A stretch of 12,455 nt of DNA. Origin: Verrucomicrobiota bacterium (GTDB lineage: Bacteria; Verrucomicrobiota; Verrucomicrobiia; Verrucomicrobiales; DEV007). Positions 1 through 6,000 of this stretch are shown here, in pieces (the stretch's first letter is position 1; the number at the start of each line of letters is the position of its first letter). The stretch covers positions 1 to 12,455 of the forward strand of contig JASFYY010000155.1 in assembly GCA_045046875.1 (NCBI GenBank). Direction: 5' to 3'. A program made the position numbers.

Positions 1-3000
1 GGCAAGGCTTGGGCAAAAAGTTCGTTACTATCCACCCTTGAAATAAGCCCATCTCAATAACCTTTCCAAGCTAATTTCCACACAAAATCACAAAGCCCCT
101 TTTTTTCCATTCAACTAACCGAGAGTTGGCATCAAGCTTCTTCCCTCTGCTCCAGTCGAGTTTGCGCTTCCTTCTGTGGTGTAATCGCATTACACTTTGC
201 ACGCCTTGTTGTAACAGGGGCGGAGGATTGGGTAGGTGTTTTTATGGCTTGAGGCTTTGGGGTGTTCGATGATATTAGAATTGGACGTAGAGAGGTAGAG
301 TTGTTTAATCGGCTGAATTTGCGTTAATTAGTGCAATGAAAACGAAGCTAGGATCAATTTTGAGAGGGGTTTGGTATGCTCTTCTGCTGGGTGTCGTATT
401 TGTTGCCGGAGTAATTTTTGATGAGTATTTGCGTTCTCGGTATACGGTTTCGATTCCGGTTGATACTTCAAATATTACAGGAGTGAAGGTCGCTGCATCA
501 CGAAAGCCGGATTTCCTGTGGTTAGGAACGGCTTGGTGGATTGATACCGATTCACCCGTTGCATTTGAACTTGAGATTGATTCTTCTATTGTCGCGAAAG
601 TGCCCGCCGGAGCTCACAAGATTTTCTATAACCATGATTACAACAATCTGAGCGAATTTGATTTTCGATTTGACGGGGATCACCCTTCGTTAGTTTCCGC
701 TCAACGATCTTCTCATGAGTGATGCTGTAGAGTCATCCGTCAGTTGCCAAAAAGTTGGATTGTTATGAAAATTTAAACACTTAGTAAGTAGGTTAATATT
801 GAGCCACGGATTATCAGTCCTTAATCGTTAGTTTCGCCCTTACAGGGCTTATGGGTATTTGATTGCTAACCCAGGGTTTCACCCTGGGCTGTCATAGGAT
901 TGGCCCTTTGGCCGTTAAGATTGGGATGTGTGGTAGATTTATACTTACATCATCTAGGTCATAGAGTAGACCACTTAGGTGGTTAAGATTGGATGGGGGT
1001 GGGTATTTTGGGTTTAGGCCGAGGGGGTGAGTAATCGTGCCCGGAAATAGGCAGTGATGGGATAGGGGCAATCACGACGAAGTGAACGCAACTAGCGAGA
1101 GGCGACTCTCCTGACCTGCACCGATGAAAAGTGGCAGGCTTTATGGGGAGATCTGGTTATTTTCTCCTTGATCCCGAATCGCGCGGGTATGGGCGGGGGT
1201 GAAGGTGTTGTTGCGCAGGGTGTTGTGATTGGCGAAGTCGTGGTTGTCGAGGCTGCTGCCGAAGGGATAACCGTCATCGGCGTGACGGTAGGGACGGCGG
1301 CCTTGACGTGAGCCGATCCAGACTCCGTAGGACCACCAGCCGAGAGTGCGGGTGGCAAAATGGTTGTTGCTGATGATATTGTGGTGCGGCGGTTGGTGGC
1401 GCACGGTACCGCCTTCGCCACAGTTGCGGTAGAGATAAATAGCGCCGAAGGGGATGTGGTCAAAACGGTTAGCTGATAGGGTATTGTGGGCGGAGCCATC
1501 GATCGCGATGATTTCACGACTGGGGCGGATGTCGAAGGTGTTGTTGCGAATGGTGATGTGAGCGCTTTCGGCATCAAGGTAGAGGGCGACGGAACTGGAC
1601 AGCCCGGAGATGTGGCAGTTTTCGATGGTGACATGGGTGACGCCGGGCGCGATGTAGATGGGGATGCGGTGATCCGCTTCGATGTCAACATGACTGATGA
1701 GGATACGGGTTGGGGCAGCTGCCTGGGCTCGCTGGGTGTGACCTGTTTGATGTGAGGATTGGCGCACGGCTTTTGCCTCGCCGTTGCGGCCCATTCCCAT
1801 GATGCGGATGGAGCCGCGCAAGCGACCATTACGGATAATGATGTCGCTTGGGCGATCCCATGGGGATTGAGATGGGGAAGCGCGTTTTTTCGAACGGATG
1901 AGGATCTCGGTGAGTTTGCCTTGATTGAACCATTCACCCTGGCCGTCGAGCACGGTGTGGCTGGCGGCTTTGCCGATCAGTTCGATTTTTTCAAATTTGG
2001 AGGAGGAAGAAAATTTGTTTTTCAGCGTGGTGGAGAAAAAACATCGGGAGACGAGTTCCGGGCTTATCAGTAGGGCAGCGATCAGCGCGACGACAAAGAT
2101 CCAGCGACGCCAAGGGCGGGGGATTGCTTGGGGAGTTGCTTGGTTTTGGGTCACGCGGGAGAGGTGGTAGAGAGCGAGGGTTCAGACCTTGTCGAGCAGC
2201 TCTTTGCGCACCTTGCCTTGGCCGAGATTGGTGACGTAGAAAGGGCGTTTTTCGATGTCGACGGAGTAGTCGGAGCGGATGCCCATCGCGCGGTAGATGG
2301 TGGCGTGCAGATCCATGACGCCGATGGCATTGCTGACCGTGGTGCAGGGGCGTTCATCTGCGGTTTCTCCGTAGAGCAGGCCTTGTTTTACTCCGCCGCC
2401 AAACATCAATACACTGCTGGCGGCAGTGAAATGACGGTGCATGCCATAGAATTTGAGATCCTGGATTTTGTCTTGCACTTTGGCTTGGGCGCGGACTTCC
2501 TTGCCGGGTTTGCCTTCGGTCATCATGTCGCGGCTGAACTCACTGGCCAACACCACCAGAGTGCGGTCGAGCAGGCCGCGTTTTTCCAGATCGAGGATCA
2601 GTTGGGTGATCGGGGCGTCGATCATTCTTTTCATTTGCTTGAGCCGGGTATGGCCATTGTCATGGGTGTCCCAACCTTTGAAGGGTTCGTAATCGGTAGA
2701 GACTTCAACAAAACGAGCGCCTTTTTCCACCAGTCGTCGAGCTAACAGGCATCCCTGGCCAAATTTTCCGGTATTGTAGATGTTGTAGGTGTTGCGGGGT
2801 TCTTTGCTCAGATCAAAAGCTTCTGCAGCCGGGCTGCTGAGCAAGCGGTAGGCTTTGTCGAGTGAGCTCAGGTAGGAGTCTTTTTGGAAATCACTGCCGT
2901 ATTCGGCCAGTGGGCTGGCGGCGAGCATGCGGCGCAGGGCTTTGTCCCGGTTTTGGAAACGGCCAAAGGTCATGCCGGCCGGAGGGCGGACCGATTTGAT

Positions 3001-6000
3001 CGCATCGGCAGGGTCGCTGATACGAAAAGGGCCGTGTTCGCTGCCGAGGCAACCGCCGGTGGAGAAGGCTTTTAATTCCTCGGCTTCACCGTTGCCGGCG
3101 TAACTTTGGCCAATCTCGATGAAAGAAGGCAGGGCTTCGTTGCGGGAGCCTAGAATGTGTGACATCCATGAGCCGAGGTGCGGAGCGGCGACGGTCAGGG
3201 GTGGTTTGTATCCGGTGTGCCAGTGATATTGATGGCGCGAGTGCAGGATGTGTCCCAGATCAGCTAAGACGTGGGAACGGATCAGGGTGCCACGATCCAT
3301 GATGCTGGCGATATTTTCCAGTCCCTGTGAAAGTTTGATAGAGTCAACCGCGCTGTCGATGGAGGGGAAGGTGGACAGCACACTCTTGGCTTCCACGCCT
3401 TTGGTGAAGGGGGTGTAGCGTTTGGGATCAAAGGTGTCGGTGTGGGCCATACCGCCGCCCATCCAAAGCAGGATCATGGAGTCGGCGCTGGGAGCGTAAC
3501 GAGCGAGTGGGGGGGCTGCGGTGCTCGGCCGGGGAGCACCGGCTGCCATCGCGGCGATGCTGGCGTTGCCCAGTGATTGTAAAAATTTTCGTCTTTTGAT
3601 CGGGTTCATGGTCTTAGTAGATCAATTCAAATTCGGGCAAAGCGAGCAGCACCCATAAATAATCGCTTAGTGCCTGTTCGGATGGAGTTGGGCCGGGTAA
3701 CATTTGTGTGGCGATGAGGCGTTCTTTTTGCGTGGGTTTCCGGCTCAGGACTTCGAGATGGATCTGGCTGATCAGATCCTGGGTTTTTAGTTTTTTAGCT
3801 AGCCAGTTTTTGGCTCCTTGACGCAGCAGGTCGTCGAAAGTTTTGCCGTTGGTGAGTTCGAGTGCTTGCAGAGTGGTGGCCAGGCCGTCGCGTTGAGTCA
3901 CGACTTGTTCACGTGCCGGGCGTCCGAGGATGCGCATGAAATCGTTTTCTTTGGCAGCTGAGGCGCGCATGGCTATTTCGATGGGGCTTTTCCCCTGATG
4001 AACGGCTTGCAGTTTTTTATCTTCAGCAATCAGGCGGCGCTGTATTTTGACCAACTCGGCGTACTGTCCGCCTTGGCCACGGAATTTTTTCTCTGGATCC
4101 TTATCCCTGGCGCTGGCTTGATTCCATGTGCCGGTGATTTTTCCTACTGCATCGAGCAATTGCTCGGCGGTCATGCGTCTGATATAAGGGCCGCGGAAAA
4201 CGTAGCTGTAATCATCGTCGCTGCTTTCTTTGAGATTCGGATTTCCGATCGCAGGCAGGGAGTAGGCGTGCGATGTGCAAATTCTGCGCATCAGGTGTTT
4301 CAGGTCATAGTGGTGTTGTTTGAAATCCTCGGCTAACCAGTTGAGGAGGTCTTCGTTCCATGAGGGATTGGCCATGAAGTCGATCGGTTCGACCAGTCCG
4401 TAAGCAAAGAAATTTTTCCACATCCGGTTCACCAGGGTGCGGGCAAAGAGGCCGTTTTTATCCGAGGTCAAAAGAGCTGCTGCCTGTTGCCGGCGCTCGG
4501 CCAGCGGGGCATTGGCTTTGATCGTGCCGAGCTCGGGGAAGAGCATCGCGGCTTGGGCTTTTCGTTTGGTCACGCGATTGCAATGTACCACTTGCAGGCT
4601 GCCGCTTGCTGAGAAAATGCTGGCGAAAGCATAAGCTTCGTCGAGCTTCCAACCGTCGATGAAGCTGTCGTGACAGGAGGCGCATTTCAGATTGGTGCCG
4701 AGAAATACCTGCGACACATTTTGCGCAGCTTGAATGACGGGGCGTTGACTGGCGTTGACCACTCCACGCCAGACGATGCCTTTGATGTAACCTTCCGCAC
4801 CGGGTGCTCCGGTGATGAGGTCGGTGGTGAACTGGTCGTAGCGTTTGTTGTCGAGCAGGGATTGGTAAAGCCAGCCGGTGATTTGCTGGCGGCCATTGTC
4901 GATGAAACCGGTGCCGTAATAACTGTTGCGCAGCAGGTCGTTCCAGAATGTTAACCAATGATCGGCGTAAGCGATTTTATCGGCTAATAAACGGTCGATC
5001 AATTGGCTGCGTTTGTCGGTGGCGGATTGATTGACGAAGTTTTCCACTTGCTCGGGATCGGGCAACAGTCCAGTGAGGTCGAGAGTGGCCCGGCGGATAA
5101 AAAGGGTATCGCTGCAGGCTTGCTTGCTCGGTAGATCGAGAAAGCGGTCGATGGGATTCTGCTGGGTTCCCGGGGGGAGTTTCACCGCTTGGTAAGCGGT
5201 TGTCGCTTTGCGGGCGTTGTTGAAGACAAAACCTTTTTTCCAGATCAAATCGCTATCGATCCATTGTTTGAACAGGGCGATTTCCTCTGCAGTCAAACGT
5301 TTGCCTTTGGGTGGCATCCATTGATCATCATCCTGACTGTTGAGCAAATCGAGCAGTAGATGGTTTTTGCCTTGTTTTGTTTTCTTGCCAACTTGAAGCA
5401 CTTTGCCATTGTCACTGCCGTGTAACAAAGTCTGACGGGAGTTCATCGAGAAACCACCTTTGGCAGCGTTACCTGTATGGCATTCTCCGCAGCGCCGTTC
5501 GATCAAATCCACGACACGGTCAAAAGGCTCGGCGGCGTGAGCTGGGTGAGCGATTACCGCGAGGACGAATATCAGGCTTGTCAGCAGGGGCTTCATGTTA
5601 TTCCTCAAGTTACGGGATTCTGAGTGTTTTGCAGCGAAATTTCTAGCTTGCCTGAGAAAGGCTTTTTTGTCACGCTGAAAGCATGAGTGAACCTGTGAGA
5701 GCGTCTGATGGTCCCTTGGCGGTGGAAGTCGAAGAGGGAAAAAGTTATTTTTGGTGTTCCTGTGGTCTGAGCAAGACCCAGCCTTTATGCGATGGGGGGC
5801 ATGCGGGCAGTGGATTCAGCCCTGTGAAGCATGAGGCAAAAAAGACCGGCACGGTGTATTTCTGCGGATGCAAAGCGACCAAAAATGCTCCCATGTGTGA
5901 CGGCAGTCACAGTGAGTAGGGGGACTTCGTTGTTGCGTAAAAATAAAAAAATGCACTATATCTGAACAGTTACTAGAAATTAGCCGTTCCGTTATTTGAT

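What a model noticed while it worked through the whole genome (the two positions that open the first line are those of the whole stretch)
2182..5596. DUF1501 and PSCyt1/DUF1549/DUF1553 proteins (47 adjacent pairs) are predicted to form a haem-to-metalloenzyme heterodime [...]
The genome holds 54 PSCyt1-PSCyt2-PSD1 genes, 47 of them followed at once on the same strand by a TAT-signal DUF1501 gene; for one pair (g04572/g04571) a complex model puts the invariant His-rich loop of DUF1501 against the second, invariant CxxCH haem motif of its partner. I read each pair as one periplasmic two-subunit redox enzyme: a dihaem cytochrome of a fold not seen in the PDB wired to an alkaline-phosphatase-superfamily (sulfatase/LtaS-like) catalytic subunit, diversified into about 50 substrate-specific versions that are often under ECF-sigma/FecR control. 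The module has been known since 2012 with unknown function; a defined heterodimer and an electron path to an AP-fold active site [...]
Evidence so far: Counts: 54 PSD1 genes, 49 next to DUF1501, 47 with it directly downstream; within 3 genes Sigma70_r2 12, FecR 6, Sulfatase 10, HTH_18 6; inserted Laminin_G_3 5, F5_F8_type_C 2, Golvesin_C 2. 42-sequence alignment: invariant C36xxC39H40 and C305xxC308H309. AF2 model of g04572 pLDDT 86, pTM 0.82; Foldseek against PDB 0 hits at E<=1e-3; VIA-align: only residues 23-120 match a cytochrome (FoxE 5mab, Z 7.7, rmsd 3.0, 93 aligned) and 583-659 small helical domains (Z<6). DUF1501 g04571: no PDB sequence hit; model pLDDT 72.5 matches sulfatases, LtaS and NPP at E 4e-4 to 1e-2; invariant G52-G53-x-x-H56-T57, D314-T315-H316, H391-R392-H393 and a D117..H131 loop. 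predict_complex (A1 125-660 with A2 35-4 [...]
(Added by a program. Inside this text positions count along the whole contig: contig position 1 is position 1 of the stretch shown here. "Call 12" and the like, gene names such as g00115 and contig names such as C1 are that model's own, and its searches are not shown. The text may have been shortened before it was handed on; [...] marks where a part breaks off. The agent that wrote the report below was given it as the finding of a first reader that could run no searches.)

Follow-up and report, generated by a model that had tools for sequence, protein, structure and literature searches.

The report
Known cytochrome–DUF1501 exported gene pair
Two tightly linked genes for exported proteins, one with haem-binding motifs and one with a phosphatase/sulfatase-like fold, belong to a large, long-described but still unexplained family of gene pairs, and the idea that they form a haem-to-metal redox enzyme remains untested.

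Summary
The genes and counts are real. Window 3614-5596(-) encodes a Sec-signal PSCyt1/PSCyt2/PSD1 protein with two CxxCH motifs. Window 2182-3609(-), 4 nt downstream, encodes a Tat-signal DUF1501. The genome has 54 PSD1 genes, 47 with DUF1501 directly downstream.

The module, its Tat signals, sugar-binding inserts, ECF-sigma link and a redox guess are already in print (2009, 2012, 2017). This scan has also noted it in other genomes.

What I add:
- PSD1 is homologous to the C-terminal half of DUF1800, the haem-free alternative partner of DUF1501 (best profile comparison E 7.7e-9; narrower alignments weaker).
- Only H123, D314, H316, D340 and H393 are invariant across 66 DUF1501 paralogs. The "His-rich loop" is specific to this orthologue group.
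- H123 aligns with the sulfatase formylglycine nucleophile, so DUF1501 is not a canonical hydrolase of its fold.
- The PSCyt2 CxxCH is universal and has no conserved sixth ligand. PSCyt1 is optional (36-38 of 54).
- Sulfatase neighbours are not enriched; ECF sigma factors are.

Verdict: an ordinary member of a known, uncharacterised module. The redox-heterodimer reading stays open.

The parts
3614..5596 (-). Gene for the PSCyt1-PSCyt2-PSD1 protein (660 aa from the ATG at 5594-5596; stop codon 3614-3616)
   Evidence: ORF listing and Pfam. A GAGGA at 5602-5606 precedes the ATG. The Atlas holds the protein starting from this Met.
5534..5596 (-). Sec-type signal peptide, residues 1-21, ending AHA before AEP
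   Evidence: Read by eye from the translation. No signal-peptide program was run.
5477..5491 (-). First CxxCH (CGECH, C36-H40), in the PSCyt1 class-I-like cytochrome c domain
   Evidence: Translation. Invariant in 44 orthologues, as are M94-P95. PSCyt1 matches the C-terminal haem domain of hydrazine synthase alpha (5c2v) at E 0.004.
4607..5131 (-). PSCyt2 (DUF1549) domain
   Evidence: Pfam PF07583, 143.8 bits.
4670..4684 (-). Second CxxCH (CASCH, C305-H309). This is the family-wide motif; most paralogs read CxxCH-D-H, this orthologue group CxxCH-D-S.
   Evidence: Translation. Present in 51 of 51 paralogs and 120 of 120 homologues. H311 is found in 47 of 51 paralogs and is Ser here.
3701..4495 (-). 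PSD1 (DUF1553) domain, homologous to the C-terminal half of DUF1800
   Evidence: Pfam PF07587. hhalign gives 95.8%, E 7.7e-9 with broad alignments, 26.9%, E 6.8e-4 with narrow ones and 19%, E 1.2e-3 with five DUF1800 sequences. Pfam's DUF1800 model also cross-hits PSD1 proteins.
3610..3613 (-). 4-nt spacer (TAA GACC ATG) between the two genes
   Evidence: Sequence.
2182..3609 (-). Gene for the Tat-signal DUF1501 protein (475 aa)
   Evidence: Pfam PF07394, 264 bits. Model and fold matches.
3514..3609 (-). Twin-arginine signal region (KRRKFL; R6-R7)
   Evidence: Translation. RR is present in 66 of 66 full-length paralogs.
3241..3243 (-). H123, invariant in all 66 paralogs. It aligns with the formylglycine Cys of sulfatases, with the same spacing to the following TG.
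   Evidence: The N-terminal region taken alone gives the same register but is not significant (E 0.039).
2662..2670 (-). D314-T315-H316. D314 and H316 are invariant in 66 paralogs and are putative metal ligands.
2431..2433 (-). H393, invariant in 66 paralogs and a putative metal ligand
3451..3456 (-). G52-G53 after the first strand, where relatives of this fold carry metal-binding Asp
   Evidence: G52 is invariant. The first strand is residues 44-49 in the model. The equivalence to Asp is inferred from motif order, not from an alignment.
1141..2154 (-). Beta-helix/NosD-like gene 27 nt downstream on the same strand. It may share the transcript but is not part of the conserved unit.
   Evidence: Pfam. 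Found in 0 of 80 orthologous loci.

Best explanation
This is one copy of a co-inherited, two-protein periplasmic unit.

DUF1501 is exported folded by Tat. It is a metal-binding protein with an alkaline-phosphatase/sulfatase fold whose active site has been rebuilt. A His (H123) stands where relatives have the Ser/Thr/formylglycine nucleophile. Three further invariant residues (D314, H316, H393) are likely metal ligands, and Gly-Gly stands where relatives carry Asp.

Its dedicated partner is exported unfolded by Sec. The partner is built on a PSD1 scaffold that is homologous to the C-terminal half of DUF1800, the haem-free partner of other DUF1501 proteins. On that scaffold sit a family-wide c-type haem motif (PSCyt2), an optional second haem domain (PSCyt1) and, in many paralogs, sugar-binding inserts.

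Most likely the partner docks on DUF1501 and brings or shapes the substrate, and the chemistry happens at the His/Asp metal site. The PSCyt2 haem would then be a lineage-specific redox accessory that supplies or removes electrons, or sets the metal's oxidation state. It would not be a universal requirement of DUF1501 chemistry.

Shown: the genes, motifs, fold, homologies, co-inheritance and conservation patterns. Inferred: haem attachment, metal binding, physical association, catalysis and substrate.
For: - Operon-like pair with a 4-nt spacer. 47 of 54 PSD1 genes are paired in this way.
- A cytochrome homologue is present in 70 of 80 orthologous loci spanning several phyla, while none of the four adjacent window genes is conserved there: beta-helix 0, AraC 0, binding-protein 0, sulfatase 4 of 80.
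- Pairs diverge together: Mantel r 0.858, and the nearest paralog agrees in 24 of 44 pairs.
- Partner type tracks the deepest split of the DUF1501 tree. The 20 DUF1800-paired rows from two phyla form one side of a branch with support 100.
- PSD1 resembles the C-terminal half of DUF1800 (95.8%, E 7.7e-9).
- The fold match is Z 16.2, with all 50 rows from the alkaline phosphatase superfamily. Against this genome's sulfatases hhalign gives 95.3%, E 2e-8, with H123 on the formylglycine Cys and S-E-F-S-R on the S-D-N-G metal motif.
- G52, H123, D314, H316, D340 and H393 are invariant in 66 of 66 paralogs, whatever the partner.
- The invariant loops are the low-confidence parts of the monomer model.
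- The CxxCH of PSCyt2 is universal, and ResB/CcsA-type cytochrome c maturation genes are present.
- Sugar-binding inserts occur in the partners.
Against: - No test of binding could be run.
- Haem and metal occupancy are unmeasured.
- 13 DUF1501 genes in this genome have no partner gene nearby.
- 5 of about 75 orthologues with enough upstream DNA have unrelated genes upstream.
- The PSD1-DUF1800 homology is strong only with broad alignments. Narrow ones give 26.9% and 19%.
- PSCyt2 shows no detectable similarity to the N-terminal half of DUF1800 (0.2%).
- The H123-to-nucleophile equivalence rests on a stretch of low to moderate alignment confidence.
- The Gly-for-Asp equivalence is inferred from motif order only.
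Confidence: 0.45

Rival explanations
1. Each pair is an obligate heterodimeric oxidoreductase. Electrons pass between the PSCyt2 haem and the DUF1501 metal site across a fixed interface, and redox chemistry on the substrate is the enzyme's function.
For: - The CxxCH is universal and has no conserved sixth ligand in the partner, which leaves room for an open or partner-supplied coordination site.
- DUF1501 lacks the hydrolytic nucleophile of its fold and has a His-rich invariant site.
- Tat export fits cofactor loading in the cytoplasm.
- Other DUF1501 clusters in this genome carry separate c-type cytochromes. In C115 the order is dihaem cytochrome c, DUF1501, PPC protein, PSD1 protein.
- Earlier scan notes report cupredoxin or decahaem partners elsewhere (not checked here).
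- A 2017 paper finds these genes enriched in genomes from oxic lake layers (PMC5615132, passages).
Against: - The complex is a single model that I could not reproduce.
- The DUF1501 loop placed against the haem motif varies among paralogs; only H123 is fixed.
- The same invariant DUF1501 residues are kept with haem-free DUF1800 partners and in partnerless copies.
- None of the 38 sampled DUF1800 loci had a cytochrome or cupredoxin gene beside it.
- No redox enzyme is known in this fold superfamily (recalled, not from a call).
Confidence: 0.2
2. A non-redox hydrolase or transferase. DUF1501 cleaves or transfers a sulfate, phosphate or similar ester on glycans using a metal-activated water or His123. 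The partner only recruits substrate through its sugar-binding inserts, and its haem senses redox or oxygen or is structural.
For: - Every fold relative is a hydrolase, transferase or mutase.
- Partnerless DUF1501 genes sit beside a ceramidase-like gene, amidohydrolases, a GH75-like gene and a sulfatase.
- Sugar-binding inserts occur in the partners.
- Haem-free DUF1800 pairs are widespread: DUF1800 is in 42 of 81 and 28 of 41 sampled genomes of two groups.
Against: - Strict conservation of CxxCH in every PSD1-type partner is hard to explain for a mere adaptor.
- The canonical nucleophile is missing, and so, by inference from motif order, is the first-strand Asp.
- Sulfatase genes are not enriched next to the pairs.
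Confidence: 0.2
3. There is no stable complex. The two proteins act one after the other in a periplasmic pathway and are merely co-transcribed.
For: - Adjacency and co-divergence follow from duplication as an operon and do not need contact.
- The two proteins use different export routes, Sec and Tat.
- Partnerless DUF1501 genes exist.
Against: - The pairing has held for a very long time with two homologous partner types across phyla.
- The spacer is 4 nt.
- Active-site loops are disordered in the monomer model.
Confidence: 0.12
4. The PSCyt2 CxxCH(D)(H) does not bind haem. It is a metal-binding or thiol-redox motif, possibly sharing a metal with DUF1501.
For: - The usual paralog motif is CxxCH-D-H, which offers two Cys and two His.
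- PSCyt2 has no solved cytochrome relative.
- No distal ligand is conserved.
Against: - The protein is Sec-exported in a genome that encodes the system that attaches haem to CxxCH.
- H311 is lost in this whole orthologue group: the motif is followed by DS in 114 and NS in 6 of 120 homologues.
- The neighbouring PSCyt1 is a recognisable cytochrome c.
Confidence: 0.06

Closest known systems
DUF1501 + PSCyt1/PSCyt2/PSD1 'conserved genetic module' of Planctomycetes, Verrucomicrobia and Lentisphaerae (Kamneva et al. 2012, PMC3542564, passages read; domains named by Studholme et al. 2004, which I did not see)
   Same: Same domain architecture, gene adjacency, Tat signal on DUF1501, sugar-binding inserts in paralogs and large paralog number. 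A guessed role in electron transport is already stated there.
   Different: Nothing structural. This is one more member, from a Verrucomicrobiota-like genome (nearest record 90% identical). The paper gives no complex, active-site analysis or link to DUF1800.
DUF1800-DUF1501 gene pairs (operon noted in PMC5122149, passages read)
   Same: The partner gene is upstream and the Tat-signal DUF1501 directly downstream: 5 of 5 in this genome and 37 of 38 sampled elsewhere. PSD1 is homologous to the C-terminal half of DUF1800. The same DUF1501 residues are invariant.
   Different: DUF1800 has no CxxCH, and its N-terminal half is not detectably like PSCyt2. Its DUF1501 partners form a separate clade.
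Alkaline phosphatase superfamily enzymes: ENPP6 (5ege), PafA (5too), type I sulfatases, LtaS
   Same: Same core fold: Z 16.2 (rmsd 4.6, 256 aligned) and Z 16.1 (rmsd 4.7, 283 aligned). Profile similarity to sulfatases is E 2e-8.
   Different: His stands at the nucleophile position. E-F replaces the D-H/N metal motif. Gly-Gly stands where relatives carry the first-strand Asp (inferred from motif order). There is no PDB relative by sequence.
Class I c-type cytochrome domains, e.g. the C-terminal haem domain of hydrazine synthase alpha (5c2v)
   Same: PSCyt1 (residues 28-128) aligns at E 0.004, with the CxxCH in register. M94-P95 are invariant.
   Different: This covers only the first 120 residues. 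The match is weak, and the rest of the protein has no solved relative.
Two-subunit periplasmic oxidoreductases made of a Tat-exported catalytic subunit and a Sec-exported cytochrome c subunit, such as sulfite dehydrogenase SorAB (recalled, not from a call)
   Same: Adjacent genes, split export routes, cytochrome c next to a cofactor-bearing enzyme.
   Different: No redox cofactor is known for DUF1501. No complex has been shown. The folds are unrelated.

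Membership tests
PSCyt1/PSCyt2/PSD1 proteins (PF07635, PF07583, PF07587) | All three Pfam domains score above their gathering cut-offs, in this order | tested here: met
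   36.6, 143.8 and 143.0 bits against cut-offs of 22, 29.8 and 28.5.
PSCyt1/PSCyt2/PSD1 proteins (PF07635, PF07583, PF07587) | A CxxCH motif in PSCyt1 and in PSCyt2 | tested here: met
   CGECH and CASCH. Both are invariant in 44 orthologues.
PSCyt1/PSCyt2/PSD1 proteins (PF07635, PF07583, PF07587) | Covalently bound haem | not testable with these tools
   Only the motif and the presence of ResB/CcsA-type maturation genes could be seen.
DUF1501 (PF07394) | Pfam domain over its cut-off, with an N-terminal twin-arginine motif | tested here: met
   264 bits against a cut-off of 27. KRRKFL is present, and RR occurs in 66 of 66 paralogs.
Alkaline phosphatase superfamily (fold) | Core alpha/beta fold shared with NPP, PafA, sulfatases and LtaS | tested here: met
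   VIA-align Z 16.2 and 16.1, with 50 of 50 rows from the superfamily. hhalign against sulfatases gives 95.3%. Foldseek alone is weak (best E 1.2e-3).
Canonical catalytic sulfatase / NPP / alkaline phosphatase | Ser, Thr or Cys (formylglycine) nucleophile after the second core strand | tested here: not met
   Invariant H123 aligns with the sulfatase Cys of CxPxR, with the same +9/+10 spacing to TG. Local alignment confidence is low to moderate. The N-terminal region alone gives E 0.039 in the same register.
Canonical catalytic sulfatase / NPP / alkaline phosphatase | Metal-binding Asp at the end of the first strand | tested here: inconclusive
   G52-G53 follow strand 44-49, but no alignment resolved this stretch.
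Canonical catalytic sulfatase / NPP / alkaline phosphatase | Asp-His/Asn metal motif after a late core strand | tested here: not met
   S356-E357-F358-S359-R360 aligns with sulfatase S-D-N-G in the high-confidence part of the alignment. E357 is kept in 63 of 66 paralogs.
DUF1800-DUF1501 module | The partner protein matches Pfam DUF1800 (PF08811) | tested here: not met
   There is no PF08811 hit on the window protein at E<=0.01. Only profile-profile homology of PSD1 to the C-terminal half was found.
Cytochrome-c-linked two-subunit periplasmic oxidoreductase | A stable complex and a redox cofactor in the catalytic subunit | not testable with these tools

The most novel reading that the evidence does not exclude
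The universally conserved PSCyt2 c-haem has no sixth ligand of its own. In this reading it sits at the subunit interface directly over the rebuilt DUF1501 site (His at the nucleophile position plus a His/Asp metal centre). The two would form a composite haem-metal catalytic centre. That would be a new class of periplasmic oxidoreductase built on the alkaline-phosphatase fold, diversified into about 50 glycan-specific versions per genome in aerobic PVC bacteria. The haem-free DUF1800 pairs would be its non-redox ancestors.
Probability: 0.12. Interest if true: 0.85.

Novelty: new member of a known kind. Interest (0 to 1): 0.45.

Why it matters
PSD1/DUF1501 pairs are among the largest gene families of unknown function in Planctomycetes and Verrucomicrobia. 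This genome has about 50 copies, and a profile of this one orthologue group finds 10,700 protein clusters at E<=1e-3. The families were named in 2004 (as cited in PMC2754498 and PMC3542564). No paper that I read in the held library reports an experiment on them.

A concrete hypothesis would make the question testable with a few mutants and one co-expression. The hypothesis names which residues bind metal, states that the nucleophile is replaced by His, identifies the universal haem motif, and says the partner's scaffold is shared with the haem-free DUF1800.

If the redox reading is right, it adds a new chemistry to a textbook hydrolase fold and a new route of carbohydrate turnover in oxic waters. 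If it is wrong, the pair is an ordinary hydrolase with an adaptor.

Tried and rejected
Binding stays open.
'Fold not seen in the PDB' could not be re-tested. The Atlas structure search returned only clusters of the same family. The PDB profile search found relatives only for residues 28-128.
- Atlas search with a DUF1800 protein: no model held and no usable hit.
- PSCyt2 against the N-terminal half of DUF1800: no similarity (0.2%, E 0.29). Placing CxxCH against a DUF1800 motif in the greedy alignment is not supported.
- Fusion as evidence of contact: the one long hit among the 150 listed (P0413, 671 aa) holds part of PSCyt2, half of PSD1 and half of DUF1501. It looks like a deletion or assembly chimera, not a real fusion.
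- Electron-carrier genes next to DUF1800-DUF1501. Among same-strand ORFs of 110 aa or more at 18 loci of one class, none had a CxxCH. At 20 loci of another phylum, no cupredoxin or cytochrome Pfam hit appeared in 25 neighbour ORFs, and one 103-aa ORF has a CxxCH without a family. Small carriers under 70-110 aa would have been missed.
- Covariation of the residue after CxxCH-D (H or S) with DUF1501 loops: only 4 of 51 paralogs lack H311 and there is no pattern.
- Residues specific to PSD1-paired DUF1501: the partnerless copies look like the PSD1-paired ones, so nothing interpretable came out.
- Promoter and terminator scan of 900-7400: no more than in shuffles.
- RNA evidence: no RNA holder listed.
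- NCBIfam: no family for either protein.
- DUF1800 alignment against the PDB: nothing (best E 2.3).

Full report
WHAT IS IN THE WINDOW. The window is a whole 12,455-base contig (C155) of a 5.59-Mb, 163-contig genome. On the minus strand lie five genes in a row:
- an AraC-type regulator (6051-7019);
- a 660-aa protein with PSCyt1, PSCyt2 (DUF1549) and PSD1 (DUF1553) domains (3614-5596);
- a 475-aa DUF1501 protein (2182-3609);
- a beta-helix/NosD-like protein (1141-2154);
- further along the contig, a GDSL/GxDLY esterase (10560-11696).

On the plus strand lie a sulfatase (7341-9179) and an SsuA/NMT1-like binding protein (9247-10437).

The cytochrome gene most likely starts at the ATG at 5594-5596. 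That ATG is preceded by GAGGA, and the Atlas holds the protein from that Met. The N-terminus looks like a Sec signal ending AHA|AEP (by eye). DUF1501 starts with KRRKFL, a twin-arginine motif. The two genes are separated by TAA-GACC-ATG, a 4-nt spacer. The CxxCH motifs lie at 5477-5491 (CGECH) and 4670-4684 (CASCH).

CHECK OF THE COUNTS.
- The genome has 54 matches to PSD1, 71 to DUF1501 and 5 to DUF1800.
- 47 of 54 PSD1 genes have a same-strand DUF1501 starting 207-1461 nt after the end of the PSD1 domain. With my start choices the intergenic gaps run from -58 to 179 nt.
- Two more PSD1 genes (C87, C108) have DUF1501 directly upstream.
- All 66 full-length DUF1501 paralogs have the RR motif.
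- Sigma70_r2 genes lie within 5 kb of 12 of 54 PSD1 genes. Random placement gives 3.0 +/- 1.6, and 0 of 1000 placements reach 12.
- Sulfatases number 116 matches, 114 positions entered (the two weakest rows left out). They lie within 5 kb of 8 of 54, fewer than the random mean of 11.7, and 929 of 1000 placements reach 8. That link is not above chance here.
- Pfam on all 54 proteins gives PSCyt2 in 53 (one is cut by a contig end) and PSCyt1 in 36 at E<=1e-5. It also gives Laminin_G_3 in 6 (5 over the cut-off), F5_F8_type_C in 3, Golvesin_C in 1 protein, WD40 in 1, Big_2 in 2 and SHD1 in 2.
- Reading stop to stop, 38 of 54 have two or more CxxCH, 15 have exactly one (the PSCyt2 one) and 1 has none because it is cut.

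So 'dihaem' describes about two thirds of the family. The PSCyt2 motif is the constant.

ORTHOLOGUES. This pair is a conserved orthologue group. DUF1501 relatives of 56-90% identity occur in Verrucomicrobiota, Planctomycetota, Acidobacteriota (Bryobacteraceae), Armatimonas, Hydrogenedentota and other records.

- In 80 fetched loci a cytochrome homologue is present in 70. A crude gap test puts it directly upstream in 55 of the 70; most of the rest are cut, frameshifted or blurred by stop-to-stop ORF limits.
- Of the 10 loci without one, 5 have under 600 nt of upstream DNA. The other 5 have unrelated upstream genes or none: WD40, radical SAM, HEAT and ExbB in four, nothing to scan in L046.
- None of the four adjacent window genes is conserved: beta-helix 0, AraC 0 and binding protein 0 of 80, sulfatase 4.
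- About ten orthologous partners lack PSCyt1 but keep the second CxxCH.

THE DUF1501 PROTEIN.
- Profile search of the PDB finds nothing significant (best E 0.22).
- The AlphaFold model has pLDDT 74.5 and pTM 0.81. Its low-confidence stretches (51-57, 118-126, 130-139, 308-321, 361-368) are exactly the loops that carry the invariant residues.
- Foldseek gives no hit at E<=1e-3. The best are LtaP at 1.2e-3, then sulfatases and alkaline phosphatase.
- VIA-align against 48,161 chains gives ENPP6 at Z 16.2 (rmsd 4.6, 256 aligned) and PafA at Z 16.1 (rmsd 4.7, 283 aligned). All 50 listed rows are from the alkaline phosphatase superfamily.
- hhalign of the 66 paralogs against 51 sulfatases of the same genome gives 95.3%, E 2e-8.

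In that alignment the C-terminal part is confident. There S356-E357-F358-S359-R360 lies on the sulfatase S-D-N-G metal motif. Further upstream, H123 lies on the Cys that becomes formylglycine, with the same +9/+10 spacing to the conserved T-G. Confidence at that point is low to moderate, and the N-terminal region alone reproduces the register at a non-significant E of 0.039.

Across all 66 paralogs the invariant residues are R6, R7, G52, H123, D314, H316, D340, G369, H393, G404 and G414. This holds for all three groups: the 48 linked to PSD1 (45 paired downstream, 3 in the reversed clusters), the 5 paired with DUF1800 and the 13 without a partner gene.

From the order of motifs along the fold I infer three things. 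D314, H316 and H393 correspond to one of the two metal sites of alkaline phosphatase and NPP. The other site is largely lost. A His stands at the nucleophile position. The reference residues are recalled from the literature on this superfamily, not taken from a call. DUF1501 is therefore a member of the fold but not a canonical hydrolase of it.

THE PARTNER PROTEIN.
- PSCyt1 (residues 28-128) aligns with the C-terminal haem domain of hydrazine synthase alpha (E 0.004), and more weakly with cytochrome c6 and c-552. M94-P95 are invariant.
- The rest of the protein has no solved relative by sequence.
- The second CxxCH is present in 51 of 51 full-length paralogs and in 120 of 120 database homologues, 117 of which have two or more CxxCH.
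- No other His, Met or Cys is conserved at 60% or more across the family. The exceptions are H311 (47 of 51 paralogs, Ser in this orthologue group) and one His at position 414 (40 of 51).
- If a haem is attached, it therefore has no family-wide sixth ligand of its own.
- The genome encodes ResB- and CcsA-type cytochrome c maturation proteins side by side on contig C88.

LINK TO DUF1800.
- All 5 DUF1800 genes of this genome are followed by a divergent DUF1501, and none has a CxxCH.
- With broad alignments (91 PSD1-type and 45 DUF1800 sequences) hhalign gives 95.8%, E 7.7e-9. The confident part aligns PSD1 (residues 356-658 of the 660-aa protein) with DUF1800 residues 278-510, up to the shared C-terminal P-E/A-F-Q motif.
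- Smaller or narrower alignments give the same register but much weaker scores: 19%, E 1.2e-3 and 26.9%, E 6.8e-4.
- Pfam's own DUF1800 model weakly hits long ORFs in other genomes over its positions 228-418. The two that I fetched are PSD1 proteins with two CxxCH, each followed by DUF1501.
- PSCyt2 and the N-terminal half of DUF1800 show no similarity (0.2%).
- In 18 DUF1800 loci from one class, 17 have DUF1501 directly downstream and none has a same-strand CxxCH ORF of 110 aa or more.
- In 20 loci from another phylum, 20 have DUF1501 downstream. Of 25 neighbour ORFs scanned, none is a cupredoxin or cytochrome.
- On a tree of 83 DUF1501 proteins, the 20 DUF1800-paired rows from two phyla form one side of a branch (support 100). 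Partnerless copies arise at least five times among the PSD1-type rows (FastTree, with the window protein on a long branch).
- Paired paralogs diverge together (Mantel r 0.858, highest of 2000 permutations 0.37; nearest paralog agrees in 24 of 44 pairs). Duplication as a unit explains this by itself.

The pair is certainly a functional unit, and an association in the periplasm is plausible.

The part of the partner shared with the haem-free DUF1800 is PSD1, and the invariant DUF1501 residues do not depend on partner type. The core job of the module therefore does not need a haem encoded beside it.

Three points keep a redox role open. The absolute conservation of a ligand-poor CxxCH in every PSD1-type partner needs explaining. 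DUF1501 has lost the hydrolytic nucleophile. C-type cytochromes recur in other DUF1501 clusters of this genome: in C115 the order is dihaem cytochrome c, DUF1501, PPC protein, PSD1 protein, and in C108 it is DUF1501, PSD1, PSCyt1-WD40.

I rate the composite explanation (metal enzyme plus PSD1 scaffold, with haem as an accessory) at about 0.45. I rate the strict haem-to-metal oxidoreductase at about 0.2.

WHAT IS IN PRINT.
- The module, the Tat motifs, the carbohydrate-binding inserts, the four-gene clusters and a guess at electron transport are in PMC3542564 (2012; passages read).
- PSCyt genes near sulfatases, their sugar-binding modules and their enrichment in oxic lake layers are in PMC5615132 (2017; passages).
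- The ECF-sigma link and 'a function in redox reactions' are in PMC2754498 (2009, citing Studholme 2004; one passage).
- The DUF1800-DUF1501 operon is in PMC5122149 (2016; passages).
- Full-text searches found 0 papers with both DUF1501 and DUF1553, 12 with DUF1501, 6 with DUF1800 and 9 with DUF1549, DUF1553, PSCyt1, PSCyt2 or 'Planctomycete cytochrome C'.
- In the listings and passages that I read, none reports a structure, a haem analysis, an activity or a PSD1-DUF1800 relationship. I did not read these papers in full or their supplements, and subscription journals are not covered.

EARLIER NOTES OF THIS SCAN. These describe the same module in other genomes, as well as DUF1800-DUF1501 with a cupredoxin, with a CxxCH protein, and DUF1501 with a decahaem cytochrome. 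They are unchecked leads. My two samples of DUF1800 loci did not show such neighbours.

VERDICT. The locus is an ordinary member of a known but uncharacterised module.

Noticed in passing
window 1141-2154 (-): A beta-helix/NosD-like protein with an N-terminal hydrophobic segment lies 27 nt downstream of DUF1501 on the same strand. It is absent from all 80 orthologous loci, so it is a local addition to the operon.
   Followed up: partly
window 7341-10437 (+): A Cys-type sulfatase with a roughly 105-aa N-terminal extension is followed by an SsuA/NMT1-like solute-binding protein. This may be a small sulfate-ester or sulfonate uptake unit, divergent from the AraC gene.
   Followed up: no
L125:829-1359, L132:882-1406, L140:888-1409; own genome L001:3062-3595 (-): An ORF of about 175 aa, read by eye as a multi-pass membrane protein and matching no Pfam family, sits directly upstream of DUF1800 in loci of two phyla. 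The four copies are 25-45% identical. It may be a third component of some DUF1800-DUF1501 units.
   Followed up: partly
own genome contig C146: 24762-28444 (-) and 29048-32152 (+): A PSD1 gene that lacks its own downstream DUF1501 (one of seven such) lies divergently next to a DUF1800-DUF1501 pair.
   Followed up: no
L085:4909-6369 with DUF1501 at L085:6366-7727; also L086, L087, L088, L092: Partnerless DUF1501 genes sit beside a ceramidase-like gene (4-nt overlap), amidohydrolases, a GH75-like gene, a rhodanese and a sulfatase. This hints at roles in catabolism of amino- or acyl-containing substrates.
   Followed up: partly
own genome contig C140: 1765-3189 and 3315-4739 (+): Two DUF1501 genes lie in tandem with near-identical N-termini and no partner gene on this short contig.
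   Followed up: no
protein P0413 (671 aa, representative library): A chimera-like protein holds part of PSCyt2, the first half of PSD1 and the second half of DUF1501. It probably arose by deletion across a gene pair or by misassembly.
   Followed up: partly
own genome contig C27: 40004-40606 (+): A second match to the cytochrome c assembly family (PF01578) has one in-frame TGA.
   Followed up: no
L110 and L118 (other genomes): DUF1501 downstream of DUF1800 is split into two ORFs. This is a frameshift or a broken gene in these two assemblies.
   Followed up: no
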